DNA of 64,000 nt from Candidatus Poribacteria bacterium (GCA_018644665.1 JABGQA010000059.1:34839-98838), one strand, 5' to 3'. Positions 46,017 through 62,674 are shown, counted from the stretch's first letter. Made by a program: numbers and translations. Notes: generated by a model from the sequence alone, not told the origin.

Positions 46017-47586
46017 GAAGATCCCGACGCAAGAGGAACTGCAGGAAGACCTCGCGGAGTTCCTCCGTCAGAAGTACGGCGACCATGTGCAACTCGGCGT
46101 ACAGGTCCAGGGCCACGGGGAACGCGAGACCGAGGTCGAGCCTCCAGAGTCGGAGGACAACGAGGAACTCAAGCAGAGAATCCTCGAGTTCGACATGACC
46201 CCCAAGGAGGTGAAGGCGTACCTCGACCGGTTTGTCATCGGTCAGGAGGACTCCAAGCGCGCCCTCGCCATCGCCATCTGCGACCACTACAACCACATTC
46301 GCGAGTGCGAGCACGATCCCGAGTTGAGGGAAGCCGACTACTCCAAGCAGAACGTGCTCATGGTCGGCCCAACGGGCGTCGGCAAGACGTACCTCATCCG
46401 CACGTTGGCGAAGCTCGTCGGGGTGCCGTTCGTGAAGGCGGACGCGACAAAGTTCAGCGAGACGGGATATGTCGGCGGTAACGTCGAGGATCTCGTGCGC
46501 GACCTCGTGACGCAGGCTGATGGTGACTTGGAACTCGCGCAGTACGGCATCGTCTACCTCGATGAGGTGGACAAGGTCGCCACGCCCCCGAACATCATCG
46601 GGCGCGACGTGAGCGGCCGCGGCGTGCAGATGAACCTGCTCAAGCTGATGGAGGAGACGGACGTCGATCTCCGCTCGCCCTTCGACCCGGCGAGTCAGAT
46701 GCAGGCGGCGATGGAGTTCCAGAAGAAGGGCAAGGTCGAGAAGCCGACCATCAACACGCGGTACATCCTCTTCATCGTCAGCGGGGCGTTCACGAACCTC
46801 GTCGACCTGGTGAAGAAGCGCGCGCACAAGACGACGTTGGGTTTCGGCGGCAACGTCGAGCGCGACGACGACGCGGAGTACCTCGCGCAGGCCATCTCGG
46901 AAGACTTCGTCAAGTTCGGCTTCGAGCCGGAGTTCGTCGGCCGGTTGCCGGTGCACGTGTTCTGCCACCAACTCTCGGTGGAGCATCTGTTCGAGATACT
47001 CCAACACTCCGAGGGATCGATCATCCGTCAGTACGAGCGCGCCTTCCGCGCCTACGGGATCGAGGTGATCTTCGAGCAGGAAGGCCTCAAGGCGATCGCC
47101 GAGTTGGCGCACGAGGAAAAGACGGGCGCGCGCGGGCTGATGACCGTTTGCGAGCGGCTCTTCCGCAACTTCAAGTACGAACTCCCAGCCACCGACGTGA
47201 CCATGTTCGTTGTTAACCGCGAACTGGCCGACCACCCGGCCGATGTCCTGGAACGGCTCCTGGCCGACCCGGGCTTCCGGCAGCGGTCGGTCGGTCGCTA
47301 CATCCTCTCGCGGTACGCCGCGCAGTTCCTGGAACAGACCGAAATCGAGTTGGAGTTCGCCGAGGACGCGATCGACGCCCTCTGCGACAAGGCCGTCGGC
47401 ACGGGCGACGAACTGTTCGGCGTGGCTCTGACGATGTTCCACGACTATGAACACGGCCTGAGCCTCGTGCGGCGCAACACGGGCAAGGCATCGTTCGTGA
47501 TAACGCGCGATGTGGTCGATAACCCGGACGGCGTGCTAAGCGACTGGATTCGCGAGTCGTACACCGAGCAGGAGCCGACGGCGTAA
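45997..47586 (+). CDS. ClpX-family AAA+ unfoldase paralog lacking the N-terminal C4 zinc-binding domain
   Basis: YLDRFVIGQEDSKRALAIAICDHYNHI; Walker A GPTGVGKT; pore loop ETGYVGGNV; Walker B IVYLDEVDKV; LGFGG in the position of the ClpP-docking IGF loop; PEFVGRLPV. There are no Cys residues in the acidic N-terminal region. The start is ambiguous (45955, 45997 or 46006). The stop lies 3 nt before fliR. Confidence 0.8.
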   Translation: MLRMAAKKIPTQEELQEDLAEFLRQKYGDHVQLGVQVQGHGERETEVEPPESEDNEELKQRILEFDMTPKEVKAYLDRFVIGQEDSKRALAIAICDHYNHIRECEHDPELREADYSKQNVLMVGPTGVGKTYLIRTLAKLVGVPFVKADATKFSETGYVGGNVEDLVRDLVTQADGDLELAQYGIVYLDEVDKVATPPNIIGRDVSGRGVQMNLLKLMEETDVDLRSPFDPASQMQAAMEFQKKGKVEKPTINTRYILFIVSGAFTNLVDLVKKRAHKTTLGFGGNVERDDDAEYLAQAISEDFVKFGFEPEFVGRLPVHVFCHQLSVEHLFEILQHSEGSIIRQYERAFRAYGIEVIFEQEGLKAIAELAHEEKTGARGLMTVCERLFRNFKYELPATDVTMFVVNRELADHPADVLERLLADPGFRQRSVGRYILSRYAAQFLEQTEIELEFAEDAIDALCDKAVGTGDELFGVALTMFHDYEHGLSLVRRNTGKASFVITRDVVDNPDGVLSDWIRESYTEQEPTA

Positions 47587-49582: not shown

Positions 49583-50863
49583 ATGATCGTAAGACGTTAC
49601 GAAGCGGCAACGGAGGAGGAGGCGCTTCGAAAGGTCGACGCGGACCTGGGTCCGCGCGCCGTCATCCTCCTGACCAAGCACGAGCCGGGCGAGAGTTGCG
49701 AAGTCGTCGCCGCCATCAACCCAATGGACATCGCCCCGGACGGCGCCGAGCCGCGCCGCGCTGACGAGGGTCAGGCGACTGATGACTTGGCGAGTGTGTC
49801 TCCGACGCGGGAGGCGCAAACCCCACCACTTCCAAACCGGACGCCGCCTAGCGGGCCGGCGCCCGCCCCGCGTGGGGAGCCGCCGCAACCCGAGGCGCCT
49901 CAGGGGCGTGACTCGGTAGGAGGGCCGGACTTCGGCTCGCCCCGAGTCGGGACCCGGCGAGAGGCCGCGCCCGTGGACGACTCGTCGTGGCTTACGAAGA
50001 TACGTCGTGGACTCGCGCACAGCGCCTACACGGGCGGTCAAGCATCGGCGTCGGACCCTCCCGTCACGCCGCCTACGCCGGCCGTCTCGATCGACGCCGC
50101 CTTGCGGCGGCGCCTCGACCAACACGATGTCGGCGAGGATCTGCTGGAGTCGATCCTGGCGACAGCGCAGACGCACACGGGCATGGACGATCTTCGGGCA
50201 GTGCTCGTCGAGGCCATGCGTCCGCACGTGAAGTTCGCCGATGGCATCGAGACGGTCGAGCGTCCGTCGGTAGTCGCTCTGCTCGGGCCTACGGGAGTGG
50301 GGAAGACGACGACGGCGGCCAAACTCGCGGCGCGCTACGCGCTTCAGGACATGAAGCGGGTTGGCCTCATCACGACAGACACGACGCGAGTGGGCGGGTC
50401 CGAGCAGCTTCAGGCGTACGCGAACATCATCGATGTGCCGTGTGTCGTGGCGCAGTCGCCGGATGAGGTTTCCACGGCCCTACTGGACTACTCGGCATAC
50501 GATCTCGTCCTGGTCGACACGCCCGGAAGAACCGCGGCCGATCGCGCGGGTATCGCCGACCTGCGAGCGTTGCTGGACGCGGCACAGCCACACGAAACAC
50601 ATCTTCTAGTGAGCGCGACCACACGCCGTGCTGACCTGTGGGAGACGGCGCGCGGCTTCCATGAGCTGTCTCCGGGTCGCATCGCTTTCACCAAGCTGGA
50701 CGAGACGACCGTCTTCGGGGACATCGTCAATTTCGCGCATCACACGCGCATGCCACTGTCGTACTTCAGCACGGGGCAGACGATTCCCGACGCGATCGAG
50801 GTCGCGACTCCCGACAGACTCGCGCGGTTACTTGTTTCCGAGCGGCGTCCGTTCTATTGTTAG
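49583..50863 (+). CDS. flhF: flagellar biosynthesis SRP-type GTPase FlhF
   Basis: The G1 motif is LLGPTGVGKTTTAAKLAA. DTPGR and TKLDET are also present. An N-terminal B-domain with a Pro-rich linker is seen. Confidence 0.9.
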   Translation: MIVRRYEAATEEEALRKVDADLGPRAVILLTKHEPGESCEVVAAINPMDIAPDGAEPRRADEGQATDDLASVSPTREAQTPPLPNRTPPSGPAPAPRGEPPQPEAPQGRDSVGGPDFGSPRVGTRREAAPVDDSSWLTKIRRGLAHSAYTGGQASASDPPVTPPTPAVSIDAALRRRLDQHDVGEDLLESILATAQTHTGMDDLRAVLVEAMRPHVKFADGIETVERPSVVALLGPTGVGKTTTAAKLAARYALQDMKRVGLITTDTTRVGGSEQLQAYANIIDVPCVVAQSPDEVSTALLDYSAYDLVLVDTPGRTAADRAGIADLRALLDAAQPHETHLLVSATTRRADLWETARGFHELSPGRIAFTKLDETTVFGDIVNFAHHTRMPLSYFSTGQTIPDAIEVATPDRLARLLVSERRPFYC

Positions 50864-50925: not shown

Positions 50926-52047
50926 ATGAGTATCTTCCCGTGCGTCCGTGGGGTGTGCATCGCGCTGTGCTTGCTGCTATACCCGCTGTACGGGTCGGCG
51001 GCTGGCGTGAATCTCACCCACGTCCAATCCGATCCCGACGCCGATGCACCCTCTCTTCGACTGGAATTCTCAGCCGAACCCAAGTGGGGGCAGACCGTTA
51101 CGTTGCTCGGCGCCGAGCAGGAGTTGCGCCTCGAGTTTACCGACACCGCGAATGTGGCCACGCAGGACGGCTACCGGCGTGAGTTCTCCGACGCCGCTGG
51201 CTTCGTCCATGCGTTGGAGATCGGCGAGGAAACCGAGGAAGACACGACGCGCGTTGTCGTGCGTCTCACATTCCCGCTGACCTCAGGAGCCACGGTGGCT
51301 GCGGGAGCAACACCGAACGTCCTCATTGTAAAGATGACCCCGGGGTCGTCTGGAGCCGCCGTTCCGCTATCGGCGCGCGCCGGGCCTTCCGAGGCGACCC
51401 GCGCCGACGTTCGCACGCTGTACATTGTGGGGGGTCTGATCCTCCTGATCGGCACCGGAGTAGTGGTGGGGTATCTCCTGCTGAGTGGCTCCGGGCGCAA
51501 GCGGGCCCGGACGGCCGCGGTTGGCGTTCCGGCCGAGGAAGCGAAGTCGCTCATGCGCGAGGACGTGGACGCCTATCGGGAGACGTCCGACGCAGCCCTG
51601 GATGCCTCGCACGAGCGGCATCAGAGATTGGTGCGCATCGTCAGACAGGACATGTCCGAGATGCGGCTGGAGATGAAATCCCTGGGCGCCGAATTCGAAC
51701 GGGCGACGCAGAGCGTGCTGCTCTTCGGCGAACCGTTTGTCGCCCGGCCGGACGACTCGCCGACGGAACTCGACGGGATCGTGTCGCCGCAGGCCGTTGC
51801 GGGCGGAGTAACGCTAGGCGCCGACACGGAGGCGTCGTCCGAGAGCGTCGCGACAGAAGACGCTGAGGGCTCCCAAGTGGCTCGCGACGACTCGCCCTAC
51901 GCTCGGGCCCGGCGTCTCGTTCAGGAAGGCGCGGATCTCGCGGAGGTCGGACGGATCACAGGACTCAGTTCCGCGGAACTCGACCTCCTGGCGCGTCTAG
52001 GGCGCATGCAGTCCAGTCGAGCGACGCAGGGCAGCCACGCGGAATAA
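50926..52047 (+). CDS. hypothetical bitopic membrane protein: AMIN-like periplasmic domain, TM, coiled coil, DUF2802-like C-terminal helix-turn-helix-like motif
   Basis: A signal-like N-terminus is followed by SLRLEFS...ELRLEFTD...TTRVVVRLTFPL (AMIN-like). The TM is LYIVGGLILLIGTGVVVGYLLL. The C-terminus is YARARRLVQEGADLAEVGRITGLSSAELDLLARL. Domain calls are by resemblance only. Confidence 0.55.
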   Translation: MSIFPCVRGVCIALCLLLYPLYGSAAGVNLTHVQSDPDADAPSLRLEFSAEPKWGQTVTLLGAEQELRLEFTDTANVATQDGYRREFSDAAGFVHALEIGEETEEDTTRVVVRLTFPLTSGATVAAGATPNVLIVKMTPGSSGAAVPLSARAGPSEATRADVRTLYIVGGLILLIGTGVVVGYLLLSGSGRKRARTAAVGVPAEEAKSLMREDVDAYRETSDAALDASHERHQRLVRIVRQDMSEMRLEMKSLGAEFERATQSVLLFGEPFVARPDDSPTELDGIVSPQAVAGGVTLGADTEASSESVATEDAEGSQVARDDSPYARARRLVQEGADLAEVGRITGLSSAELDLLARLGRMQSSRATQGSHAE

Positions 52048-52054: not shown

Positions 52055-52069
52055 TGGTTGCAGGAATGC
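52055..52069 (+). promoter_or_regulatory. weak candidate sigma-54 (-24/-12) promoter TGGTTG-N5-AATGC
   Basis: The GG and GC dinucleotides have the canonical spacing (TGGttgcaggaaTGC). It lies in the gap upstream of the giant vWA gene, and a sigma-54 activator is encoded nearby. Only the core positions match. Confidence 0.25.
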
Positions 52070-52223
52070 GGGGAACTGCGTATTATTACGTTCTGCCCGG
52101 ACCGAGCGGGACAGACTTTTGGGTGTGACATGTCGCCGGCCGTTGGGTAGGCGCTACGTGCCTGCGCGTGGTCCCGACCCGGCACGGTGTCCCGCTATTG
52201 GCAACAGATACGGGGACTACGCG

Positions 52224-55200
52224 GTGTTTACCAGGCCTCAGACGCGGCGCCGATCGACCGGCACGTCACTGATTGCGACTCTGGTTCTCGGCTTTGTCGC
52301 ACATGTGTCGCTTTATGCCCAAAGCGCGCCCACCGCTTCGGGACCGTTACCAAGCGCCTCGGGGGCTCCCGTGCCGCTGGTATCGGTGACCCGCCGCCAC
52401 ATTGTCTTCGCGCTCGACCAATCCATCTCGATGGATCATCTGGATCCTGAGCGACTTCGGATTGAGGGCCTGCGCAAACTGCTCTATGGTCTCAGTCCTA
52501 CCGACCAGGTGGGTCTCGTTCTTTTCGGGGACGCTGCGCGGATCGCCGTCCCCCTGGCGCCAGCAAGCAGCGCGAACATGGGCGCTCTGTTGCGTGAGGC
52601 CAACGCCCCCAGCGCCGTCACGGGCTCTCCTGACCTAAACCGCGCGATGCAGACCTCTTTGGGTATGCTGCCCAAGGGCGTGGACGGGGTTATCTCCTCG
52701 GTCATCCTGATATCCAGCGCTCGTATGCCTGAAGGTATGGATGAGGAGGCTGTCAAGGCGGCAACGATCGCGTTGCGACGCTCCACCTACACGTTCATCC
52801 GGGCGAACGCCGACCTGTATGCCATCGCGCTTGGGCCGTTCTCCGACAAGGCTCTGGCTCTGACATCCGTCATGAGGAGCCGGACGAATCAGTATGAAGT
52901 AGAGACCGGGAACGGGCTCCCGCAGGTCTTCGGGAAGATACTCGTCCAGGTGCAGGGGTATGGCCAGCGTCCTGTCTTGGCGCGCCTCGATCCCGAGGCC
53001 GCGTCCGTGGACAAGCAGGAGTTGGTCCAGGCGGTTCGGGTTGCGCCGTACACGGAACTGCTCCAGATCGACATCGTCTCGGAATCGGACCAGTCCGGGG
53101 TGATCGGCTTCGCCGTTGCCCTCAAGAACCCCGAAGGTGACATAGTCCCCCCGACGTTCCAGAGCAGCGGGAACGCGTTCTACCGCATTCCCGGACCCAT
53201 GGCTGGGGAATGGCAATACGGGGTGAAACCAGAGCGCAAGGCTCGGATCACGCACCAGGTCATCACGGACACTGGTCTGAAGATCGTGCACTACTACCCG
53301 TCGGTGGTCGAAGTCGGTAAGGCCATTGACCTGTACTCCTCTGTCCTGACTCGGCAGGGGCCGGTGGAGGTAGACAGCTTCAAGGTCGGCACCGTCGACT
53401 ATCAGTTCGCGCAGGCCGACGTGACGTTCGTGGGCCCTGACGGTACCTCGGAGACTATCCGGGCGCAGCTCGAAGGACGCCGATCTGTGTACGCGGGTGA
53501 GTACAAGGTCACCAACTGGCGAGGGGACGTACCCGGCGCGTACGATGTCGACATCGCGATATACCTGCGCAAAGAGAAAGAGCTGCACGGCGATCTGTTC
53601 GAGATGCACAACATCCAGCCGATAACGATCCATGTGGTCGACGACCGCAGCCAACTGCCCCTGGTATCCCTGGCATCCGTAGATCCGGTATCGACCGATG
53701 GACGTCCTATCCCACTCTTCGACGCTCAGGGCAGGGCCCCGCAACTGAGCTTCTATGCAGAGGTGCTCGAGCGGGGCGTCGGCGGCGTGTCGCCGTACAT
53801 GCTCGGGCGCACGATCATCGCGCGGGTGAAGCGGGGCGACGGCTACGAACTGACCGGGGATGTCGGCCAGGCGACCCTGACCGGGTACAAGCGTCCGGTG
53901 GGCCCTCCCTCTCTGCTTCTGGAGCCGGACACCACCGTGGCGCGTCGGGTGCAGTACGCCTTTCCCACGCTCAACACCTCCGCGCGCGACAAAGTGTATT
54001 TCGAGCAGGCCGGGTACTATCGCGTACAACTTATAGAGGGTCCGACCTATCGCGTCGACGCGGCACGCGCATCGGTCGTCCGGCAGGTAGGGGACGAGCC
54101 GCTCAGCAGCACCGCCATCGTCATGCTTGCCCTTGGCGGGCTGGTGGCCGTGTTCGGCGGGGCGCTGTATCTGCTCATCGAGTGGGGCAAGATTGATCTG
54201 GCTCCGCGCGGCGCTGGCGATCAGCTTGACGACGTTCTCATCGAGGACGAACCCACGTTCACGACCTTCACGGATGTCTTCGACGAGAACCTGTTCGACA
54301 TGCCGCAGAACATCCCGTTGGAGATCGCCGTTTTCGAGCATGGAATGCTCACGAACCATACGACGTTCGACACGGAGCGATCCGAGAATTACGTCGTTAA
54401 GGTGCTTCGGGGTAGCGCCTACATCAACGGCTCTCCGGTGACCGATGAGTTCGACTTACACATGCGCCCCGAGGATGAGTTCCAGGTCGGCGACTTCAAA
54501 GCCGGAATCTCGGGGGTCGAGGACCTCGTGATTCAGTTCATGGTGGAAGATGTCGGGGAGAGCACGGTCATCAACGTGATAACGGACACGGGAGTCCAGC
54601 GATGGACCATCACCTCCGCACCGGAGCTCCGTGTGCCTCCGCGGCCAGGGGAGACGCGCACGCTGGACTTCTCCGAGCAAGATGAACTCCTCATCGCGCG
54701 GGATGAAGGACTGGACGCCGATCACCCGATGGACATCGCTCTATACCACGAGTCGGTGGGCGCCCCCCACGCCAAATTCACCAAGCAGACGTACCTCAAC
54801 GGCTCGGTCGGCTATGGCGTCGAGGCAATCCGGGGCAGCCTGTACGTCAACGATCGTCGGCTCGAACCCGAAGAGGTCGTCGAGGAGTTCAGCCCGGGGA
54901 CCACGATCAAGATCGGGCGCTTCACATTCAAGTACAATTGGGATCAGGGCCCCGACGCGCAACACCCCGTGCTGGAGTTCTTGGAGGCGCCGGAAGCGAC
55001 TCCATTACCTATTACCGATATCCACAACGATCCTCCGGCGGATGTCGCCGAGGAAACGGACGCAGCGACCGTTGACGAGGAGGCCCTCGACGCGCTGTTC
55101 GACGACGGAGACGGCCCATCAGAGGACGAGGACGACGACTCGACCGCTGATGGCGAGAGTGCTGTGGACGCCGTAGCCGATATCGTCGACGATGACGCGG

Positions 55201-55925
55201 CTCCGGCCGAGGAGGGCGCGCTCGACGAGATGTTCGCGGCTCCGGCCGAAGGTGAGGTTCCCGTCGCCGATCCTGTCCCGGACGCCGACGAAGCAGCCCT
55301 GGATCTCGATGCCCTGCTGGCCGACGACGAAACCGAGGGCGATGAGCCGGGCGAAGACGTGGATGCTGGAGCGCCGGGTGAAGCGCCCACGCTGGACGCG
55401 CTGGTCGGTGATGAGCCGGGACCGGAAGGGGATGTTGCGGAAGAGGCTCCCCAGGCGGAGACGGCCGACGAAACCGCCGACGCGTTGACCGGTCTGCCGA
55501 CCTCCGAGGGTTTCGCTGATCGGCTGAACGAGGACTGGGCCGCCGCCGAAGCCGCTGACCTGCCGATGTCGATGGTCCTCGTGGACGTCACTCGGATAGC
55601 AAGTGACGGCGATGAGTCGGCTGCAACGGAAGTCGCGCGCGTACTGAGCAGCGAATTCGCGGCCGTTGGGACGCCGTCGCACGCGGGCGAGCATCTGTTA
55701 GCCCTGGTGCTCACGAACGTCCCGCTGGACGAGGCCATTGAGGTCGCCGGATTGGTCCAGACTGCTCTCGGTGGCGCGTTCCCTGACTCGTCGGAAGGCA
55801 TCTCCATGGGCGTGTCGGAACGACGCGGAAGCAGAGCGGAAGACGCCGCCGGATATCTACGGTCACTTCGTGAAGCAATGGACGAAGGCGTTGCGGCGGG
55901 CCAGAACTTCGTCGTATACGGTTAG
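52224..55925 (+). CDS. giant bitopic protein: periplasmic vWA domain, TM, two FHA-like modules, acidic (E/D)xALDxL repeat region, degenerate GGDEF-like C-terminal domain
   Basis: The GTG at 52224 gives a signal peptide VFTRPQTRRRSTGTSLIATLVLGFVAHVSLYAQS (the ORF is open from the TTG at 52119). The vWA MIDAS is IVFALDQSISMD...VGLVLFGD. The TM is TAIVMLALGGLVAVFGGALYLLIEW. The FHA-like segments are VLRGSAYINGSPV...FQVGDF and AIRGSLYVNDRRL...IKIGRFTFKY. The GGDEF fold is TGLPTSEGFADRL...MVLVDV...AGEHLLAL, with the GGDEF signature replaced. Confidence 0.75.
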   Translation: MFTRPQTRRRSTGTSLIATLVLGFVAHVSLYAQSAPTASGPLPSASGAPVPLVSVTRRHIVFALDQSISMDHLDPERLRIEGLRKLLYGLSPTDQVGLVLFGDAARIAVPLAPASSANMGALLREANAPSAVTGSPDLNRAMQTSLGMLPKGVDGVISSVILISSARMPEGMDEEAVKAATIALRRSTYTFIRANADLYAIALGPFSDKALALTSVMRSRTNQYEVETGNGLPQVFGKILVQVQGYGQRPVLARLDPEAASVDKQELVQAVRVAPYTELLQIDIVSESDQSGVIGFAVALKNPEGDIVPPTFQSSGNAFYRIPGPMAGEWQYGVKPERKARITHQVITDTGLKIVHYYPSVVEVGKAIDLYSSVLTRQGPVEVDSFKVGTVDYQFAQADVTFVGPDGTSETIRAQLEGRRSVYAGEYKVTNWRGDVPGAYDVDIAIYLRKEKELHGDLFEMHNIQPITIHVVDDRSQLPLVSLASVDPVSTDGRPIPLFDAQGRAPQLSFYAEVLERGVGGVSPYMLGRTIIARVKRGDGYELTGDVGQATLTGYKRPVGPPSLLLEPDTTVARRVQYAFPTLNTSARDKVYFEQAGYYRVQLIEGPTYRVDAARASVVRQVGDEPLSSTAIVMLALGGLVAVFGGALYLLIEWGKIDLAPRGAGDQLDDVLIEDEPTFTTFTDVFDENLFDMPQNIPLEIAVFEHGMLTNHTTFDTERSENYVVKVLRGSAYINGSPVTDEFDLHMRPEDEFQVGDFKAGISGVEDLVIQFMVEDVGESTVINVITDTGVQRWTITSAPELRVPPRPGETRTLDFSEQDELLIARDEGLDADHPMDIALYHESVGAPHAKFTKQTYLNGSVGYGVEAIRGSLYVNDRRLEPEEVVEEFSPGTTIKIGRFTFKYNWDQGPDAQHPVLEFLEAPEATPLPITDIHNDPPADVAEETDAATVDEEALDALFDDGDGPSEDEDDDSTADGESAVDAVADIVDDDAAPAEEGALDEMFAAPAEGEVPVADPVPDADEAALDLDALLADDETEGDEPGEDVDAGAPGEAPTLDALVGDEPGPEGDVAEEAPQAETADETADALTGLPTSEGFADRLNEDWAAAEAADLPMSMVLVDVTRIASDGDESAATEVARVLSSEFAAVGTPSHAGEHLLALVLTNVPLDEAIEVAGLVQTALGGAFPDSSEGISMGVSERRGSRAEDAAGYLRSLREAMDEGVAAGQNFVVYG

Positions 55926-55954: not shown

Positions 55955-56902
55955 ATGCGATCTCTTGACTCGACCGCGGATTCGACGGCAGGCGCGGTAA
56001 TCCTTGCGGTGGATGATGACCACCACAACCTGTTTATGCTCCAGCGGCGACTCGAGGGCCATAACTACCGCGTATTCACGGCATCCTCGGGCAAGAGCGC
56101 AATGGACTTGGCCGCCGAGCACAGCCCTGACCTCATCCTCCTCGACATCACCATGCCTGAGATGGATGGCTTTGCCGTCAAGGAGGCCCTGAACCAAGAC
56201 GACCGGCTCGGGTCAATCCCAGTCATATTCCTATCCGACCGGGTGCAAATCGAGTTCAAAGTCCGCGCGTACGGGCTGGGCGGCACGGACTTCCTCTCGA
56301 AGCCGTTCCACCCAGAGGAACTGCTGGCGCGCATGCAGGTTGGGCTACGTCACCACATGCGGGCGCGGATGTACGAGAACGAGATATCGAATCTCGAAGA
56401 AGCCATGCGAACCGGTGGCGTCCAGGGCGCCGACGAGGAAGAGGCGCTCGAGCGTCTGACCCGTGCGATGCAGATGGCCGAGAGCCGGAGCGACCCGGTC
56501 TCCGTGCTGGATCTCAGGATCGTGGGCCTGGCGGAGATGAACAACGCTCCGCTCGCGCGCGTTATCCTGATGGAGACCAGCGAAGTTCTGCACGAGATGG
56601 TCAACGCTGCGACGGATACCGTATTGGCATACCGCGAGCAGGGCGAATACCTCCTCCTCGCTGTTGGCACCACCAGTAAGCGGGCGCAGATCCTCGCCGA
56701 AGGACTCAAGAGCAGCATCATGGTGCGCGCGTTCGCCGACCCGAACGCCGAAGACCAGCTCGAGGTGAGTATCGGCATTGCCGCGTGGGAGCCGGGCCAG
56801 GACTACACCGCCGAGGACATCCTCGCCGGCGCCAGCGAGGCCATGGAGTCCGCGGCGGGAGCCGGCGGCAGCCGTACGGTCGTCAAGCGCTTCGAGGAAT
56901 AA
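55955..56902 (+). CDS. response regulator: REC domain plus a degenerate GGDEF-like output domain
   Basis: The REC motifs are ILAVDDD, DLILLDITMPEMDG and SKPF. The C-terminal fold has REQGEYLLL in place of GG(D/E)EF, and no RxxD I-site is visible. Confidence 0.85.
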   Translation: MRSLDSTADSTAGAVILAVDDDHHNLFMLQRRLEGHNYRVFTASSGKSAMDLAAEHSPDLILLDITMPEMDGFAVKEALNQDDRLGSIPVIFLSDRVQIEFKVRAYGLGGTDFLSKPFHPEELLARMQVGLRHHMRARMYENEISNLEEAMRTGGVQGADEEEALERLTRAMQMAESRSDPVSVLDLRIVGLAEMNNAPLARVILMETSEVLHEMVNAATDTVLAYREQGEYLLLAVGTTSKRAQILAEGLKSSIMVRAFADPNAEDQLEVSIGIAAWEPGQDYTAEDILAGASEAMESAAGAGGSRTVVKRFEE

Positions 56903-56937: not shown

Positions 56938-58269
56938 GTGGCGAAGATACTTCTTGTCGACGATGACCCCGACTTCTGCGCCGCGCTCGTCGCCCGATTG
57001 GCTCAGAAGGGCTTGGATGTCGACGCCGCTGAGAGCGGGGCCGTAGCCCTAGCACGCCTACGCGACCACGCGTACGCTCTCGTCATCTCCGACGTGCGCA
57101 TGCCCGAGATGGACGGCATTGAGCTTCTGCGCCGAGTGAAGGAGGACCGGCCACAGACGCCCGTTCTCATGCTCACCGCGTTCCGCGACGTGGATGGCGC
57201 CGTGGAGGCGATGAAGCTCGGCGCCAACGACTACCTGATCAAGCCCGTCGAGGGCGACATCCTCTACGCGAAGATCACTCACATTCTGCCTGAATTCGGC
57301 GAAAGGCCCGCCGGATTCGAGAGCATTGTCACGTGCGATCCGAGCATGGTGAAGCACCTGGAAATGCTCGATATGGTCGCCCAGTCGAACGCTTCCGTGC
57401 TGCTGTCCGGCGAAAGCGGGACGGGTAAGGAGGTGTTTGCCCGCGCCATCCATGAGCGCAGCCCCAGATCGAGCTTTCCATTCGTCGCGGTGAATTGCGC
57501 CGGCCTGCCGGAGGGGTTGCTGCAGAGCGAGTTGTTCGGACACGAGAAGGGCTCTTTTACCGGCGCATCGACACAGCACAAGGGCAAGTTCGAGCAGGCG
57601 GACGGAGGGACCCTCCTTCTGGACGAGATCTCGGAAATGCCCCCCGAACTCCAGGCGAAGCTGCTGCGCGCGCTTCAGGAGCGCGAGGTCGACCGGCTCG
57701 GAGGCAAGCGCCCGATCAAGGTAGACGTGCGCGTCATCGCGACAACGAACCGCGACATGCAGCAGCACGTGCGCGACGGCGGCTTCCGCGAGGATCTGTT
57801 CTATCGGCTCTGCGTGGTGCCGATCACGCTCCCGCCGTTGCGCGAGCGGAGGATGGACATCCTCCTCCTCGCAAGGCATTTCCTCAAGGAGTTCTGTGAG
57901 CAGAACCAGAAGAGCATCTCGGACTTCACCGACGCCGCCGCGGGATGGATGGAGAGCCAACAGTGGCACGGCAATGTGCGCGAACTGCGCAACGTTGTGG
58001 AACGGGCGGTTGTGCTGTGCCAGGGGAATCGCGTCGAGTCGTACGAATTGAACCCGGAGCTGTGGGTAACGCCCGAAAGCGACGCGGCGGCGGCTGACGA
58101 CCCGGGCAGGCTCGATGTGCGCGTTGGCATGACGGCGCACGAGGTGGAGAAACGCCTGATCCTGAAGACGCTGGAGGAATCCGGCGGCAACAAGAGCCGC
58201 GCGGCCGAGATCCTAGGCATCACGCCTAGAACCATCAGGAACAAGCTGCGGGAATACGGACTCATGTAG
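56938..58269 (+). CDS. sigma-54-dependent Fis-family response regulator (NtrC/FleR/FlrC class)
   Basis: REC (ILLVDDD, LVISDVRMPEMDG). The AAA+ domain has GESGTGKEVFARAIH, ELFGHEKGSFTGA (GAFTGA-type loop) and LLLDEI. The C-terminal Fis HTH is NKSRAAEILGITPRTIRNKLREYG. GTG start. Confidence 0.9.
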   Translation: MAKILLVDDDPDFCAALVARLAQKGLDVDAAESGAVALARLRDHAYALVISDVRMPEMDGIELLRRVKEDRPQTPVLMLTAFRDVDGAVEAMKLGANDYLIKPVEGDILYAKITHILPEFGERPAGFESIVTCDPSMVKHLEMLDMVAQSNASVLLSGESGTGKEVFARAIHERSPRSSFPFVAVNCAGLPEGLLQSELFGHEKGSFTGASTQHKGKFEQADGGTLLLDEISEMPPELQAKLLRALQEREVDRLGGKRPIKVDVRVIATTNRDMQQHVRDGGFREDLFYRLCVVPITLPPLRERRMDILLLARHFLKEFCEQNQKSISDFTDAAAGWMESQQWHGNVRELRNVVERAVVLCQGNRVESYELNPELWVTPESDAAAADDPGRLDVRVGMTAHEVEKRLILKTLEESGGNKSRAAEILGITPRTIRNKLREYGLM

Positions 58270-58276: not shown

Positions 58277-58954
58277 GTGATGTCCCAGCCTTTGTCGCGT
58301 CTTCGCCTCCAGCCCTGCCCGAGCGCGCGTGGCGGCTGCGCCGTGCCGGTGTTCGCCGCGATCATCCTGGTGTTGGTCTCTTCGGGGTGCGACCGCACGC
58401 CGGTCGTACACGATGTCCGCCCGCGAGAGATCCCCGAAACTGGCGCCACGGTCGTGACTGTCCGGGGCGACCGCTTCCGTGGTGGGACGCGCGTCACTCT
58501 GAACGGCTCGGTACTGTCGGACACGACCGTCGTCGACAAGACCACGTTGCGCGCCACGCTCCCTCCCTCGAATCCCGGGCCGGCCAGGATCGGCGCGGTG
58601 ACGTTGCCGGACGCGCCCTCACCCACGACGGTCGAAGTCCTCTACGTCGACGTTACGCCTCCTCGAGTCATAGGCTGGGAGCCGGCCGGGGCCCTGCCGC
58701 CCGACGCAACCACGAACCGCATCCGTGTCACCTTCTCCGAGCCGATCGAGACAGGGTCTCTTGACCTACGAGACGACGCCGGCTCCGAAGTGCTCGGCTC
58801 CGTATCGCGACTGGGGGCAGTGTTGGTCTTCGCGCCGTCAGAAAGTCTGCTCGCGGGTCGCGGCTACGTGGCCTCGGTGTACGGCGTCACGGACGCACGT
58901 GACAACGCGGCCGCGTCCGAGCGACTGCGCTTCTCGATCGCCTCGCCCGAGTAG
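58277..58954 (+). CDS. lipoprotein with an IPT/TIG domain and an SbsA-type Ig-like domain
   Basis: The lipobox is ILVLVSSGC-D. The TIG-like segment is TGATVVTVRGDRFRGGTRVTLNG. PPRVIGWEPAG...IRVTFSEPIETGS is typical of Big_5/SbsA_Ig. Confidence 0.65.
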   Translation: MMSQPLSRLRLQPCPSARGGCAVPVFAAIILVLVSSGCDRTPVVHDVRPREIPETGATVVTVRGDRFRGGTRVTLNGSVLSDTTVVDKTTLRATLPPSNPGPARIGAVTLPDAPSPTTVEVLYVDVTPPRVIGWEPAGALPPDATTNRIRVTFSEPIETGSLDLRDDAGSEVLGSVSRLGAVLVFAPSESLLAGRGYVASVYGVTDARDNAAASERLRFSIASPE

Positions 58955-59446: not shown

Positions 59447-59474
59447 TAAAGTCCCGCGGCAGAGGCGCCGATAG
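59447..59474 (+). promoter_or_regulatory. sigma-28 (FliA)-type promoter TAAA-N16-GCCGATAG upstream of flagellin 1
   Basis: cTAAAGtcccgcggcagaggcGCCGATAG compared with the consensus TAAA-N15-GCCGATAA. It lies about 350 nt upstream of the ATG at 59824. Confidence 0.65.
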
Positions 59475-59823: not shown

Positions 59824-60690
59824 ATGTTTAAGCTCAACACGAACATGAACGCGCTGACGGCCGCGAACCGGCTGCGTCAGACGGGCGCCGACGCCGCGAA
59901 GCGGCTCGAGCGGCTGTCGACCGGGCTGCGGATCAACAGCGCTGGCGACGACCCGGCTGGGCTCGGGGCGTCCGAGACGATGCGGTCGCAGTTGGCCGGC
60001 CAGACAGTGGCAGCCGAGAACGTCGGGCGAGCCATCTCCCTGCTACAGACGGCGGACTCGAGCCTCGAGCAGATCGGCAACCTTCTGGTTCGCCTGAAGG
60101 AGTTGGCGATCCAGAGCTCGGACTCAACCATCAGCGACGACAACCGCCTCGGCATCTCCGACGAAGCGGCCGGTCTCATCGCTGAGATCGACCGAATCGC
60201 CGACACGACGACGTTCAACGGCATCAGCCTGATCGCGTCGGCCGGGACCGGGGCGACGAACCTGACGTTCTACATCGGCGACGGCACGTCGTCGAGTGGC
60301 GCGACGGCGGCGCTGGCCCTGAAGGGTGTCCAGTACACCGCCGCTACGGGCCTCGGCACCATCAACGCCACGGCCGTCAACATCGGGCTGGCGTCGATCG
60401 GCGCCGCATCGTCTGCTCCAGAGGTGGCGCTTGCCATCGACACCGGCGTGACGGAACTGACGAAGCTCCGGAATTCTGTCGGCGCGCTCCAGAACCGCAT
60501 GGAGCGTACGCTCGACAGCCTGCTCGCCGGAGCAGAGAACACAGCGTCCGCGATCTCGACGATCCGCGACGCCGATTTCGCGCAGGAGGCGACCGCGCTC
60601 ACGCGGGCGCAGTTGCTCGTGCAGGCAGGCGTGTCGATGCTCTCGCAAGCTAACGTGCTGCCGCAGACCGCGCTCCTCCTGCTGATATAG
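59824..60690 (+). CDS. fliC: flagellin (288 aa), paralog 1
   Basis: MFKLNTNMNALTAANRLRQT...LERLSTGLRINSAGDDPAGL...GALQNRMERT...IRDADFAQEATALTRAQLLVQAGVSMLSQANVLPQTALLLL. Confidence 0.95.
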   Translation: MFKLNTNMNALTAANRLRQTGADAAKRLERLSTGLRINSAGDDPAGLGASETMRSQLAGQTVAAENVGRAISLLQTADSSLEQIGNLLVRLKELAIQSSDSTISDDNRLGISDEAAGLIAEIDRIADTTTFNGISLIASAGTGATNLTFYIGDGTSSSGATAALALKGVQYTAATGLGTINATAVNIGLASIGAASSAPEVALAIDTGVTELTKLRNSVGALQNRMERTLDSLLAGAENTASAISTIRDADFAQEATALTRAQLLVQAGVSMLSQANVLPQTALLLLI

Positions 60691-60747
60691 CCGCCCGGCT
60701 ATGTCTCCGTTCCGCAAGTGGTAACCCTGCGGAAACCCTTCTGACAT

Positions 60748-60778
60748 GGGCGGCGCCATCCGATGGCGCCGCCCTTTT
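60748..60778 (+). terminator. rho-independent terminator after flagellin 1
   Basis: GGGCGGCGCCATC-c-GATGGCGCCGCCC followed by TTTT. Confidence 0.8.
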
Positions 60779-60800
60779 CCCGCTCAAGTGCACTTCGCGC

Positions 60801-60827
60801 TCAAGTCCTTGGCCAAACGGCCGATAT
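60801..60827 (+). promoter_or_regulatory. sigma-28-type promoter TCAA-N15-GCCGATAT upstream of flagellin 2
   Basis: cTCAAGtccttggccaaacgGCCGATAT, about 360 nt upstream of the ATG at 61190. Confidence 0.55.
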
Positions 60828-61189
60828 ATGTAGCGAAGGGTTACCACGAGCGGAAGTTGTCCCACCGACGATTTCCCTTGTCCCACACAAAGCAAAAGCC
60901 TCCCCTAGGCCCCCTAAGACTCTTCGCGCAGCCATATCCCCGGATTGCGTCGACTCGTTGGAGTCGGCTCGGTTCAATGGTCTGCTTCGCCTCAACGTCC
61001 CCTACATGTCTACGCGTGCAATCCTGAGTCAGAAGGTTGTCCTCTAGCCTCCGGCTGTGGGCCACGTAGGTTCACGTACAGGGCTCGACGCATGCGCGGC
61101 GGCGGGCGAACGTCCACCACCACTATAAAGCATGCGGTATACAACCCTGTCCAAGCACGGAGTGTGGAGATACAAGGAGCTCGGTGACG

Positions 61190-62059
61190 ATGTTCAGAAT
61201 CAACACGAACGTTCTCGCGATCACTGGTCAGAGGAATCTGTTCCAGACGACCAAGGATCTCAACACTCGGATGGAACGGCTCTCGTCGGGGCTTCGCATC
61301 AACAGCGCCGCGGATGACGCGGCGGGGTTGACCGCCTCGGTCGCCATGCGCGCACAGCTGGCGGGCCTCAGCACCGCGAACGACAACATGTCCCGCGCGG
61401 TTACGCTGCTTCAGACCGCTGATAGCGGCCTCGAGCAGATCGGGAACATGCTCATCCGGCTCAAGGAGTTGGCCGAGCAGTCCGCGGACGGGACCCAGAA
61501 CGCCGATAACCGCAGCGGTCTCTCGACGGAAGCCGCCGCGTTGATCGCCGAGATCGACCGCATCGCTTCCTCGACCACGTTCAACGGCATCAGCCTGATC
61601 GACTCCGCCGGCGCGGCCACATCGGTCACGAACCTGACATTCTACGTGGGTGACGGCACGTCGGCCACGAACCAGGTGCTCTCGCTCGCCCTCAAGGGCG
61701 TGGCGTTCGACGCCAACGGCATCGGGACCATCGGCGGCACGGGGTTCAACTTCACGCTGGACGACTTCCTTGGGCAGGCGTCCGCGCAGGCGATGGTCTC
61801 GGACATCGATACCGCCGTCACGACGCTGGCGTCGATCCGCACGGATGTCGGGGCATTCCAGAACCGCATCGAGCGGTCCCAGGCGAACGTGCAGACGCAG
61901 ATCGAGAACACGGCGAGGTCCGAATCGACGATCCGCGATGCGGATTTCGCGGTTGAGGCCTCGGCGATGACCCGCGCGCAGATCCTCGCGCAAACGGGCG
62001 CGTCGATACTGCAACAGGCGAACCTGCTCCCACAAATCGCGCTCACCCTGGTCAGCTAA
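61190..62059 (+). CDS. fliC: flagellin (289 aa), paralog 2
   Basis: MFRINTNVLAITGQRNLFQTTKDLNTRMERLSSGLRINSAADDAAGL...GAFQNRIERS...IRDADFAVEASAMTRAQILAQTGASILQQANLLPQIALTLV. An AAGGAG SD sequence lies 10 nt upstream. The track ORF starts at a GTG two codons earlier. Confidence 0.95.
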   Translation: MFRINTNVLAITGQRNLFQTTKDLNTRMERLSSGLRINSAADDAAGLTASVAMRAQLAGLSTANDNMSRAVTLLQTADSGLEQIGNMLIRLKELAEQSADGTQNADNRSGLSTEAAALIAEIDRIASSTTFNGISLIDSAGAATSVTNLTFYVGDGTSATNQVLSLALKGVAFDANGIGTIGGTGFNFTLDDFLGQASAQAMVSDIDTAVTTLASIRTDVGAFQNRIERSQANVQTQIENTARSESTIRDADFAVEASAMTRAQILAQTGASILQQANLLPQIALTLVS

Positions 62060-62230
62060 TGTCGCACGCGACTCCACAGATTCCCCTTTCGGGGACGCAC
62101 GGGCACACGGAGGCGTCATTGTCGACGTCTCCCCGGGGCCATAGGGATCGGCCGTCTGACGGCCGTGAAACCCGCCGGTCACGGGTACTCGCGTCCCGTC
62201 GCGATGTTCCGAGTTCGGCGATCTTTGGGC

Positions 62231-62258
62231 TAAAGCGTCCGATGGTACGTGCCGATAC
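62231..62258 (+). promoter_or_regulatory. sigma-28-type promoter TAAA-N16-GCCGATAC upstream of flagellin 3
   Basis: gcTAAAGcgtccgatggtacgtGCCGATAC, about 420 nt upstream of the ATG at 62675. Confidence 0.65.
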
Positions 62259-62558: not shown

Positions 62559-62674
62559 CACGATACAACTGCATCACGCGGGATGTCCCCGGATTCCCAG
62601 ACGCCATACGTCTGCCCGGAGGTCGCCCTGCATGCCTGCCACCCATCGCGAATGGGTGAGGGAGCATTTCTGCC

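What the first reader, a model, noticed from the sequence alone, without database searches (positions are those of the whole stretch)
52119..55925. Giant vWA / TM / FHA-like / acidic-repeat / degenerate-GGDEF protein downstream of flhF: candidate polar landmark or scaffold
The roughly 1,230-aa protein has a predicted periplasmic vWA domain with MIDAS DQSIS. It has a single TM (about 54109-54185) and two FHA-like modules. An extremely acidic region contains four copies of an (E/D)xALDxL(F/V/L) motif (about 55075-55420). The C-terminal GGDEF fold has its signature replaced by AGEHL.

The position is suggestive. It is the second gene after flhF (the slot directly after flhF, where flhG normally sits, holds the AMIN-like protein at 50926-52047). 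The bitopic architecture with a long acidic cytoplasmic part is reminiscent of polar organisers such as HubP/FimV. The degenerate cyclic-di-GMP domain recalls TipF-type receptors. No sequence homology to those proteins is claimed.
Basis: partly seen in the sequence, partly recalled or inferred. Interest (0 to 1): 0.75.

Follow-up and report, generated by a model that had tools for sequence, protein, structure and literature searches.

The report
Poribacterial flagellar-cluster membrane hub protein
This is a real, uncharacterised 1,233-residue membrane protein found only in Poribacteria, always encoded next to two response regulators and usually next to the FlhF partner FipA; it looks like a docking hub at the flagellar assembly site, but no function has been tested.

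Summary
The gene is real. Its true start is GTG 52224, giving 1,233 aa. Every domain call is supported:
- Sec signal peptide.
- Periplasmic vWA domain (Pfam, just above cut-off; 9 of 10 family members hit).
- One TM helix.
- Two cytoplasmic FHA-fold modules (AlphaFold pLDDT 83; Foldseek returns FHA domains).
- A disordered linker with net charge -59 and four ExxxLDAL(F/L/V) motifs. Shuffling predicts 0.04. There are 47 copies in ten relatives and none outside the linkers.
- A C-terminal GGDEF-fold domain with a dead active site (AGEHL) and no RxxD I-site.

The family is small (about ten 50%-identity clusters), and every member that is credibly named comes from Candidatus Poribacteria.

Across six deep lineages, the gene is always followed by a REC–dead-GGDEF gene and an NtrC-type sigma-54 regulator gene. 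In four lineages a FipA-like DUF2802 gene precedes it. In three it sits beside flagellar export or flagellin genes. One lineage has no flagellar neighbour.

The most likely function is a flagellum-associated membrane hub that docks the co-encoded regulators, and possibly FlhF/FipA or FlhG/CheY-type proteins. It would be analogous to HubP/FimV but is not homologous. The c-di-GMP receptor idea is not supported. Localisation and binding partners are untested.

The parts
52057..52098 (+). Conserved non-coding block upstream of the gene (GTTGCrGGrAyGC...TGCGTATTATTACGyTCTGCCC). It may be a promoter, with TATTAT at 52081-52086.
   Evidence: Nearly invariant in the window, L001 and L003. It did not pass the sigma-70 consensus scan, and there is no sigma-54 consensus.
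52224..55925 (+). Coding sequence of the 1,233-aa protein: GTG start, stop codon included.
52224..52322 (+). Sec-type signal peptide (aa 1-33: RRR, hydrophobic core, YAQ/S).
   Evidence: Read from the sequence. Conserved in P0003, P0004 and the remote relatives.
52401..52928 (+). Periplasmic vWA domain (aa 60-235), with DQSIS at aa 65-69.
   Evidence: Pfam VWA_2 27.2/27 and VWA 26.5/23.8. Nine of 10 family members hit. About 400 generic vWA proteins match this part of the profile.
52941..54098 (+). Periplasmic beta-rich region (aa 240-625), probably Ig-like sandwiches.
   Evidence: Predicted to be all-beta. Only aa 269-339 were modelled with some confidence. One member gives a weak Filamin hit. 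Not resolved further.
54105..54185 (+). Single transmembrane helix (aa 628-654), followed by GKxDLAPR (positive-inside).
   Evidence: Sequence. Helix in the model. Conserved.
54186..54302 (+). Conserved juxtamembrane segment VLIEDE..TFTDVFDENLFDMPQN (aa 655-693).
   Evidence: Invariant among the close relatives and recognisable in the remote ones.
54303..54620 (+). FHA-fold module 1 (aa ~694-799). Degenerate: it lacks the GR motif.
   Evidence: AlphaFold pLDDT 80-93. Foldseek returns FHA domains. The only PDB sequence hit is the FHA domain 1uht, E 0.56.
54648..54989 (+). FHA-fold module 2 (aa ~809-922). R826, S844 and H849 are conserved.
   Evidence: Pfam FHA 21.1 against a cut-off of 20.7 when scanned as a fragment. 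AlphaFold pLDDT about 90. Foldseek. Conservation.
54996..55472 (+). Disordered acidic linker (aa 925-1083) carrying four ExxxLDAL(F/L/V) motifs at nt 55086-55100, 55221-55235, 55305-55319 and 55392-55406.
   Evidence: Net charge -59 (aa 925-1090). Four motifs against 0.04 expected. 47 motifs in 10 relatives, none outside the linkers. pLDDT below 35, with short helices exactly at motifs 1 and 4. No DNA tandem repeat.
55473..55922 (+). C-terminal catalytically dead GGDEF-fold domain (aa 1084-1233). AGEHL lies at nt 55683-55697.
   Evidence: AlphaFold pLDDT 75-86. Foldseek matches PleD, DgcB, GcbC and WspR with probability 1.0 and target-normalised TM-score about 0.7. Pfam GGDEF hits all 10 members.
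49583..50863 (+). flhF.
   Evidence: NCBIfam TIGR03499 FlhF 185.9 bits against a cut-off of 174.
50926..52047 (+). FipA-like gene: signal peptide, periplasmic domain, TM helix, coiled coil and C-terminal DUF2802.
   Evidence: Pfam DUF2802 34.8/33.5. The G-x15-E-x2-L residues of FipA are present (PMC11620751). The gene is conserved upstream of the giant gene in L010, L013, L015 and L016.
55955..56902 (+). REC plus degenerate GGDEF (QGEYL) response regulator. It always lies directly downstream.
56938..58269 (+). NtrC-family sigma-54-dependent response regulator. It always lies second downstream.
   Evidence: best matches AtoC, FlbD and ZraR, none at cut-off. Synteny.
58277..58954 (+). Small TIG/Big_5 protein, present downstream in several lineages.

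Best explanation
**What it is.** The gene encodes a Poribacteria-specific bitopic inner-membrane protein. About 570 residues face the periplasm (vWA plus beta-sandwich region). One helix crosses the membrane. About 580 residues face the cytoplasm. The cytoplasmic part has:
- two FHA-fold modules next to the membrane;
- a disordered, very acidic tether carrying 4-6 copies of a short helical motif ExxxLDAL(F/L);
- a GGDEF-fold domain that cannot make c-di-GMP.

**Most likely function.** It is a flagellum-associated membrane hub. The periplasmic part would fix it in the envelope. The cytoplasmic tail would dock soluble partners multivalently.

**Likeliest clients.**
- The two response regulators encoded immediately downstream. 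Their REC domains could bind the LDAL helices, and the two dead GGDEF domains could pair.
- The FlhF/FipA pair encoded immediately upstream.

This would couple the site or state of flagellar assembly to sigma-54-dependent transcription.

**Relation to known proteins.** It would work like HubP/FimV but is unrelated in sequence.

**Shown versus inferred.** Shown: the architecture, the conservation of the motifs, the loss of catalytic residues and the gene neighbourhood. Inferred: every binding partner, the localisation and the link to transcription.
For: **Architecture.**

**Motif array.**
- Four copies against 0.04 expected.
- 47 copies in ten relatives, all in linkers.
- The motifs persist in remote relatives whose linkers are much less acidic (D+E 37-44 in 167-181 residues in P0010, P0011 and P0014, against 59 in 166 here) and richer in Pro or Ser/Thr.
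- AlphaFold places short helices exactly on motifs 1 and 4 within an otherwise disordered stretch.

**Invariant downstream pair.** The REC–dead-GGDEF and NtrC-type regulator genes follow the giant gene in all six deep lineages. Searching from the REC–dead-GGDEF protein instead leads back to the giant gene directly upstream.

**FipA-like gene upstream.** Present in four of six lineages. FipA is an experimentally shown FlhF-binding pole determinant that acts alongside HubP (PMC11620751, PMC12826062).

**Flagellar neighbours.** Full fliR-flhB-flhF...flagellin synteny is kept at 36% identity in L010. A flagellin lies downstream in L014.

**Motif resemblance.** The motif core L-D-A-L-(L/F) resembles the FliM/FliY EIDAL motif. 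That motif binds CheY-P and FlhG (bioRxiv 10.1101/2022.04.21.489128; PMC12826062).
Against: - No binding, localisation or phenotype data exist, and the organisms are uncultured.
- One lineage (L008, hot-spring Poribacteria) has no flagellar or FipA-like gene within 10 kb.
- No sigma-54 promoter consensus was found near the flagellin genes. The first flagellin has a sigma-28-like promoter instead. A flagellar role for the NtrC-type regulator therefore rests on context only.
- The regulator's best NCBIfam matches (AtoC, FlbD, ZraR) are all below cut-off.
- The resemblance of the motif to EIDAL covers five residues of an amphipathic helix and could be coincidental.
- All synteny comes from one phylum, so part of it may reflect shared ancestry rather than selection.
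Confidence: 0.4

Rival explanations
1. It is a transmembrane signalling receptor, or anti-activator, with no role in positioning. The periplasmic vWA/Ig region would sense an envelope or extracellular ligand. The cytoplasmic tail would then sequester or release the two co-encoded response regulators. In effect it occupies the slot where a FlrB/FleS-type histidine kinase normally sits next to a sigma-54 regulator.
For: The only invariant neighbours are the two response regulators. No histidine kinase is in the cluster. L008 keeps the three-gene module without any flagellar neighbour.
Against: There is no HisKA, HATPase or HPt domain. FipA-like or flagellar genes are adjacent in five of six lineages. 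This reading overlaps with the hub model and does not exclude it.
Confidence: 0.25
2. The FHA-like modules are genuine phosphothreonine readers. The protein would then be a substrate or adaptor of a Ser/Thr kinase pathway, as for FHA proteins in type VI and type VII secretion.
For: FHA fold. Module 2 keeps an invariant Arg (R826), a nearly invariant Ser (S844) and an invariant His (H849) in FHA-like positions. Foldseek also matches the tandem-FHA chain of a type VIIb core unit (rank 24).
Against: No kinase or phosphatase gene is in any of the loci. Module 1 lacks the GR motif. Module 2 lacks the canonical Asn of the beta6-beta7 loop (sequence reading). Pfam support is marginal.
Confidence: 0.1
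3. It is a periplasmic structural accessory of the flagellar motor, a functional analogue of FlgT, MotX/Y or PflA/B. The cytoplasmic tail would be secondary.
For: The periplasmic part is large and conserved. The gene lies between export-gate genes and flagellins.
Against: The cytoplasmic FHA region is the best-conserved part: 88% mean column identity against 71% for the whole protein. The motif array and dead GGDEF domain are kept family-wide. The invariant partners are cytoplasmic regulators.
Confidence: 0.1
4. It is a c-di-GMP or GTP receptor that uses the degenerate GGDEF domain (PopA/PelD/TipF-like logic).
For: GGDEF fold. A second degenerate GGDEF protein is encoded next door.
Against: There is no RxxD I-site upstream of the signature. 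The signature position varies across the family (AGEHL, AGDDL, AGENL, AGDNQ, LDSQRL, YDNERL and others). The DxDhFKxxNDxxGH nucleotide-binding segment is shortened (motif positions taken from general knowledge of GGDEF domains).
Confidence: 0.07
5. It is a generic envelope vWA protein unrelated to flagella, and the adjacency is inherited by chance within one phylum.
For: The family is confined to one phylum. L008 has no flagellar neighbour.
Against: Adjacency to FipA-like, flagellin or flhF genes persists at 32-36% identity even though the flanking genes are otherwise completely reshuffled.
Confidence: 0.08

Closest known systems
HubP (Vibrio, Shewanella) / FimV (Pseudomonas) polar hub proteins
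   Same: Both have a periplasmic anchoring domain, a single TM helix, a long and extremely acidic repetitive cytoplasmic region, and a small globular C-terminal domain. Both are genetically or functionally tied to FlhF and FipA. HubP and FipA jointly recruit FlhF (PMC11620751, PMC12826062).
   Different: No sequence homology. There is no LysM domain and no FimV core or C-terminal motif (no Pfam or NCBIfam hit). The periplasmic domain is vWA plus beta-sandwiches. The tandem FHA modules and dead GGDEF domain have no counterpart. The repeats here are 5-9-residue helical motifs, not HubP's 46-residue repeats (repeat length from general knowledge of HubP).
FliM/FliY N-terminal EIDAL motif (docking peptide for CheY-P and FlhG)
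   Same: The core [I/L]-D-A-L-[L/F] sits in an acidic context, forms a short helix in a disordered segment, and lies in a flagellar context (bioRxiv 10.1101/2022.04.21.489128).
   Different: Here the motif is internal and occurs 4-6 times per protein, and the preceding LSQ of FliM is absent. Binding to any REC domain or MinD-type ATPase is untested.
Degenerate GGDEF proteins (PopA, PelD, the FimX GGDEF domain, CsrD)
   Same: A GGDEF fold with a lost GG(D/E)EF catalytic motif, used as a non-enzymatic module (one search includes the FimX GGDEF domain, 3hva).
   Different: PopA and PelD keep an RxxD I-site and bind c-di-GMP. This family has no I-site and no conserved signature.
Membrane-proximal cytoplasmic FHA domains of secretion machines (EssC/YukB tandem FHA of type VIIb; SctD/YscD/PrgH of injectisomes)
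   Same: FHA-fold modules sit directly adjacent to a TM helix. These are probably phospho-independent interaction platforms. Foldseek aligns 270 columns to a T7b core-unit chain (9qks_H).
   Different: The topology is opposite to SctD: here the FHA modules follow the TM helix and the N-terminus is periplasmic. There is no ATPase or ring-building domain. Sequence identity is about 10%.
TipF (Caulobacter flagellar placement, c-di-GMP-binding degenerate EAL)
   Same: A membrane-anchored protein with a degenerate c-di-GMP-type domain, implicated in flagellar placement.
   Different: TipF uses an EAL domain, which is absent here. There is no evidence for nucleotide binding.

Membership tests
von Willebrand factor A (vWA) domain | Profile match at the Pfam gathering threshold. 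| tested here: met
   VWA_2 27.2 against 27 and VWA 26.5 against 23.8. Nine of 10 relatives hit, best 1.2e-9.
von Willebrand factor A (vWA) domain | Complete MIDAS site (DxSxS plus distal Thr and Asp). | tested here: inconclusive
   DQSIS is present, but the motif is DQSAA, DASPT, DRTPS or DTSAG in relatives. The distal residues could not be placed because the periplasmic model was poor.
FHA domain | 11-stranded beta-sandwich fold. | tested here: met
   AlphaFold pLDDT 83.4 and pTM 0.82. The 21 Foldseek matches at E <= 0.001 are all FHA domains.
FHA domain | Profile match at the Pfam threshold. | tested here: inconclusive
   No hit in the full-length scan. Module 2 scores 21.1 against 20.7 when the fragment is scanned alone, and 4 of 6 relatives hit. 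Module 1 is never detected by Pfam.
FHA domain | Phosphothreonine-binding residues (GR, SxxH, NG). | tested here: inconclusive
   Module 2 has R826 and H849 invariant and S844 nearly invariant, but the spacing is atypical and the loop Asn is absent. Module 1 has no GR. No structural superposition was possible.
GGDEF diguanylate cyclase | GGDEF fold. | tested here: met
   Foldseek probability 1.0 and target-normalised TM-score about 0.7 to PleD, DgcB, GcbC and WspR. Pfam hits all 10 relatives.
GGDEF diguanylate cyclase | GG(D/E)EF catalytic signature. | tested here: not met
   AGEHL here. The position is variable in relatives.
GGDEF diguanylate cyclase | RxxD inhibitory or receptor I-site five residues upstream of the signature. 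| tested here: not met
   The sequence is AVGTPSHAGEHL, with no RxxD in any relative.
HubP/FimV | Periplasmic LysM peptidoglycan-binding domain. | tested here: not met
   No LysM hit in Pfam at E <= 1.
HubP/FimV | FimV core or C-terminal motif (the NCBIfam FimV core and C-terminal domain models). | tested here: not met
   The NCBIfam scan returned only a weak SiaD hit.
HubP/FimV | Bitopic topology with a long acidic repetitive cytoplasmic region. | tested here: met
HubP/FimV | Polar localisation and recruitment of FlhF, FlhG or ParA-type clients. | not testable with these tools
   Needs microscopy and interaction assays.
TipF | Degenerate EAL domain that binds c-di-GMP. | tested here: not met
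   No EAL hit.
FipA (the neighbouring gene 50926-52047) | TM helix, cytoplasmic coiled region and DUF2802 with conserved G, E and L; encoded with flhF. | tested here: met
   DUF2802 34.8 against 33.5. G-x15-E-x2-L is present. The gene lies directly after flhF. Criteria are from PMC11620751. An extra periplasmic domain is not part of classical FipA. The FlhF interaction is untested.
Anti-phage defence systems with vWA | Match to a PADLOC model. | tested here: not met
   No PADLOC hit for the protein.

The most novel reading that the evidence does not exclude
The linker may be a multivalent mimic of the FliM/FliY EIDAL docking peptide. In that case a membrane-anchored array of 4-6 LDAL(L/F) helices would capture FlhG-type ATPases and/or CheY-like REC domains, including the two co-encoded regulators, next to FlhF and FipA. 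It would be a non-homologous replacement for HubP. It would link flagellar number or placement control to sigma-54 transcription in a phylum outside the Proteobacteria.
Probability: 0.2. Interest if true: 0.8.

Novelty: new variant of a known kind. Interest (0 to 1): 0.55.

Why it matters
How FlhF finds its site is known only in a few gamma-proteobacteria, where it depends on HubP/FimV plus FipA. The field's own 2025 review lists landmarks outside that group as an open question (PMC12826062).

This locus shows a FipA-like gene next to flhF in a distant, uncultured phylum. It is paired with an unrelated giant membrane protein that has HubP-like logic and an array of EIDAL-like motifs.

If the inferred interactions hold, three things would follow:
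- It would be an independent invention of a flagellar hub.
- It would extend FipA beyond the Proteobacteria.
- It would give concrete, peptide-sized interaction hypotheses that can be tested in vitro without culturing the organism.

If they do not hold, it remains a well-defined new protein family with a new domain combination, tied to a sigma-54 two-regulator module.

Tried and rejected
1. **Full-length AlphaFold.** The 6-sequence alignment gave a mean pLDDT of 37. Only the C-terminal domain was usable, and the periplasmic part remains unresolved.
2. **Homologue search with the cytoplasmic alignment A7.** The search for homologous proteins returned nothing, not even family members, so that search was wasted.
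3. **PDB profile searches of the cytoplasmic region.** They gave only non-significant hits: nectin at E about 1, and the FHA domain 1uht at E 0.56.
4. **Paralogy of the two dead GGDEF domains.** BLASTP between the protein's C-terminal domain and the neighbour's found nothing significant (E 0.26 or worse).
5. **Sigma-54 promoters.** None lie upstream of the gene or the flagellins. The 13 two-mismatch hits are fewer than the 19.5 expected by chance. The TGG of a candidate site at about 52055 is not conserved in L001 or L003.
6. **Sigma-70 consensus scan.** No sites were found in 49-60 kb.
7. **DNA tandem repeats in the acidic region.** None were found.
8. **Defence-system reading.** No PADLOC hit.
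9. **AMIN domain in the neighbouring gene.** No Pfam hit at E <= 0.01.
10. **Presence or absence of flhG, fliM and cheY in this genome.** This could not be determined. The contig ends about 0.7 kb after the window, and the longer 178-kb contig has no retrievable DNA.

Full report
**1. The gene**

The ORF listing gives one long ORF, 52119..55925 on the + strand.
- The TTG at 52119 is only the first possible start.
- A GTG at 52224, preceded by GGGGA, opens a typical Sec signal peptide (MFTRPQTRRRSTG..LVLGFVAHVSLYAQ/S).
- This start, the Shine-Dalgarno-like sequence and the signal peptide are conserved at DNA level in two relatives whose gene calls had been truncated (L001, L003).
- They are also conserved at protein level in P0004.
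- Other gene callers give the same 1,233-aa product.
- A 42-nt non-coding block (52057-52098) just after the stop codon of the previous gene is almost invariant in the three loci. It may be a promoter, although it failed the sigma-70 scan and has no conserved sigma-54 element.

**2. Domains**

*vWA.*
- Pfam finds vWA at aa 60-235, just above cut-off.
- Nine of ten family members hit, best E-value 1.2e-9.
- About 400 generic vWA proteins match this part of the family profile.

*TM helix.* A single helix spans aa 628-654, followed by basic residues. The N-terminal ~600 residues are therefore periplasmic and the C-terminal ~580 cytoplasmic.

*FHA-like modules.*
- The cytoplasmic region aa 655-930 had no Pfam hit in the full-length scan.
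- Scanned alone, module 2 reaches FHA at 21.1 bits against a cut-off of 20.7.
- With a 10-sequence alignment that includes remote relatives, AlphaFold gave a confident model (pLDDT 83.4, pTM 0.82) of two consecutive beta-sandwiches.
- The 21 Foldseek matches at E <= 0.001 are all FHA domains: KIF1A, TIFA, Mek1, Chk2 and others.
- At E 1.1e-3 there is also a 270-column match to a type VIIb secretion core chain.

*GGDEF-like domain.*
- The C-terminal 150 residues were the only confident part of the full-length model.
- They match GGDEF domains with a target-normalised TM-score of about 0.7.
- All ten relatives hit Pfam GGDEF, best 3.6e-10.
- The signature is AGEHL here. In relatives it is AGDDL, AGENL, AGDNQ, LDSQRL, YDNERL, MDVGRF or LDNARL.
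- There is no RxxD I-site, and the nucleotide-binding DxDhFKxxNDxxGH segment is shortened.
- The domain is therefore a pseudo-enzyme, and the usual way degenerate GGDEF domains bind c-di-GMP is absent.

**3. The linker**

- Residues 925-1090 have 59 Asp/Glu and no Lys/Arg.
- The motif L[DE]x[LM][FLIVM] occurs four times. Composition-preserving shuffles give 0.04.
- Across ten family members there are 47 copies, all in the linker, and none in the roughly 10,000 residues outside it.
- The extended consensus is E-A-x-(D/S)-L-D-A-L-(L/F)-(A/G)-(D/E).
- The motifs survive in remote relatives whose linkers are much less acidic (D+E 37-44 in 167-181 residues in P0010, P0011 and P0014, against 59 in 166 here) and richer in Pro or Ser/Thr.
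- There is no DNA-level tandem repeat, so the motif itself is under selection.
- AlphaFold leaves the linker disordered but places short helices exactly on motifs 1 and 4.
- This is the signature of a multivalent array of short linear motifs.

**4. Family and distribution**

- The word-indexed search found six clusters at 57-65% identity, plus the window's own protein. One is labelled Candidatus Poribacteria.
- The exhaustive profile search of 1.84 billion representatives found ten proteins below E 1e-30.
- These include four full-length remote members (P0010, P0011, P0013, P0014; 32-34% identity) with the same architecture from signal peptide to dead GGDEF.
- Where named, full-length members are Poribacteria (MBM3215312.1; the KatS3mg115 MAG) and annotated only as hypothetical or 'VWA domain-containing'.
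- A 3.3-kb contig binned as Dehalococcoidia carries a member at 78% identity. This is probably a binning error.
- Short periplasm-only forms (P0007 to P0009) include a cluster member labelled Verrucomicrobiales. See item 8 of section 9.
- The tandem FHA-like unit alone also occurs in two other architectures (P0023, P0026).

**5. Neighbourhood**

In the window the order is: M48 peptidase, ClpX-like AAA+, fliR, flhB, flhF, DUF2802 gene, the giant gene, REC–dead-GGDEF, NtrC-type sigma-54 regulator, TIG/Big_5, flagellins.

| Lineage | Loci | Identity to window protein | Upstream | Downstream |
|---|---|---|---|---|
| Marine clade | window, L001-L005, L007, L009 | 57-65% | Full cluster including flhF and the DUF2802 gene | Two regulators, TIG/Big_5; flagellins follow in the window and L003-L005 but not in L001/L002 |
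| L010 | L010 | 36% | Full cluster including flhF and the DUF2802 gene | Two regulators, flagellin |
| L013/L016 | L013, L016 | 32% | FipA-like gene; no flhF | Two regulators |
| L015 | L015 | 34% | FipA-like gene; no flhF | Two regulators |
| L014 | L014 | 33% | No FipA-like gene | Two regulators, TIG/Big_5, flagellin |
| L008 | L008 | 32% | Corrinoid-methyltransferase genes | Two regulators, then cytochrome oxidase genes |

- The two regulators are invariant neighbours (6 of 6 lineages).
- The FipA-like gene is upstream in 4 of 6.
- Flagellar structural or export genes are adjacent in 3 of 6.
- The REC–dead-GGDEF protein is itself a Poribacteria-only family: 17 clusters at 52-97% identity, then a sharp drop to REC-only matches.
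- Loci retrieved from that protein again have the giant gene directly upstream.

**6. The neighbour after flhF**

- It is not just 'AMIN-like'. It has a signal peptide, a periplasmic domain, a TM helix, a coiled segment and a C-terminal DUF2802 (34.8 bits against a cut-off of 33.5).
- It carries the G-x15-E-x2-L residues. In Vibrio and Pseudomonas FipA, the conserved Gly and Leu of this trio mediate binding to FlhF (PMC11620751).
- FipA together with HubP/FimV recruits FlhF to the pole in gamma-proteobacteria (PMC11620751, PMC12826062).
- Finding a FipA-like gene glued to the giant gene, even where flhF is elsewhere, is the strongest contextual argument for a flagellar-site function.

**7. Interpretation**

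The protein has the logic of a hub: an envelope anchor, interaction modules next to the membrane, a long flexible multivalent tether and a terminal pseudo-enzyme domain.
- The motif core (L-D-A-L-L/F) resembles the EIDAL motif of FliM and FliY. That motif binds CheY-P and the MinD-type ATPase FlhG (bioRxiv 10.1101/2022.04.21.489128; PMC12826062).
- REC-domain proteins are the invariant neighbours.
- I therefore favour a flagellum-associated docking hub for the two regulators, and possibly for FlhF/FipA or FlhG/CheY. I put the confidence at 0.4.
- A pure receptor or anti-activator for the two regulators is the main rival, at 0.25. The two readings overlap.
- The c-di-GMP receptor reading is disfavoured by the missing I-site.
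- The phosphothreonine-reader reading is disfavoured by degenerate binding residues and by the absence of kinase genes nearby.

**8. Limits**

- The periplasmic beta region is unresolved.
- The presence of flhG, fliM or hubP in these genomes could not be checked.
- The NtrC-type regulator has no flagellar-specific signature.
- The first flagellin has a sigma-28-like rather than a sigma-54 promoter.
- All evidence for function is contextual.

**9. Noticed in passing**

1. The FipA-like gene after flhF (50926-52047) extends FipA, described so far in gamma-proteobacteria, to Poribacteria. It has an added periplasmic domain.
2. The REC–dead-GGDEF regulator (55955-56902; QGEYL, canonical phospho-acceptor residues) belongs to a Poribacteria-only family that always follows the giant gene.
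3. An M48 peptidase and a ClpX-like AAA+ ATPase (343.6 bits, just below the ClpX cut-off of 359) head the flagellar cluster at 45090-47586. The same holds in relatives down to about 60-70% identity (L001-L005, L010). No ClpP gene is nearby.
4. At least three tandem flagellin genes fill the end of the window. A longer 178-kb contig of the same organism lists eight, then flgF/G, flgA and flgH. The L-ring gene implies a diderm envelope.
5. A sigma-28-like promoter (TAAA-N16-GCCGATA) lies about 350 nt upstream of the first flagellin, at 59447-59473.
6. The conserved AT-rich non-coding block at 52057-52098 stands out in a 63-65% GC genome.
7. A small conserved TIG/Big_5 protein (58277-58954) follows the sigma-54 regulator in the marine clade and in L014.
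8. Proteins of 647-663 aa (P0007 to P0009) match only the periplasmic part of the family profile (to about profile position 570), with some 40 residues beyond. One cluster member is labelled Verrucomicrobiales. They may be truncated gene calls or real short paralogues.
9. The rest of the window is rich in eukaryote-like repeat proteins typical of Poribacteria: WD40 (16255-18024), FG-GAP plus ankyrin (11265-13742), a 1,307-aa FG-GAP/FlgD_ig protein (20165-24088), pentapeptide repeats (35700-37205), and a PD40/dockerin/FlgD_ig protein (42789-44603).

Noticed in passing
window 50926-52047: The gene directly after flhF encodes a FipA-like protein: signal peptide, periplasmic domain, TM helix, coiled coil and a C-terminal DUF2802 carrying FipA's G-x15-E-x2-L residues. 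FipA has been described in gamma-proteobacteria; here it appears in Poribacteria with an added periplasmic domain.
   Followed up: partly
window 55955-56902: A response regulator with a canonical REC domain and a degenerate GGDEF domain (QGEYL). Its family is Poribacteria-only, and the gene always lies directly downstream of the giant gene.
   Followed up: partly
window 45090-47586: An M48 peptidase and a ClpX-like AAA+ ATPase (343.6 bits, just below the ClpX cut-off of 359) head the flagellar cluster. The same holds in relatives down to about 60-70% identity (L001-L005, L010). No ClpP gene is nearby.
   Followed up: no
window 59824-63541 and beyond: There are at least three tandem flagellin genes in the window. 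A longer 178-kb contig of the same organism lists eight in a row, then flgF/G, flgA and flgH (L-ring, implying a diderm envelope).
   Followed up: no
window 59447-59473: A sigma-28-like promoter (TAAA-N16-GCCGATA) lies about 350 nt upstream of the first flagellin. No sigma-54 consensus is near the flagellin genes, despite the adjacent sigma-54 activator.
   Followed up: no
window 52057-52098: A nearly invariant AT-rich non-coding block (..TGCGTATTATTACG..) lies between the FipA-like gene and the giant gene in three genomes. It stands out in a 63-65% GC genome.
   Followed up: partly
window 58277-58954: A small conserved TIG/Big_5 protein follows the sigma-54 regulator in the marine clade and in L014. 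Its function is unknown.
   Followed up: no
P0007, P0008, P0009 (no window coordinates): Proteins of 647-663 aa match only the periplasmic part of the family profile (to about profile position 570), with some 40 residues beyond. One member of the P0007 cluster is labelled Verrucomicrobiales. They may be truncated gene calls or real short paralogues.
   Followed up: no
window 11265-13742, 16255-18024, 20165-24088, 35700-37205, 42789-44603: The rest of the window is rich in eukaryote-like or repeat proteins typical of Poribacteria: FG-GAP plus ankyrin, WD40, a 1,307-aa FG-GAP/FlgD_ig protein, pentapeptide repeats, and a PD40/dockerin/FlgD_ig protein.
   Followed up: no
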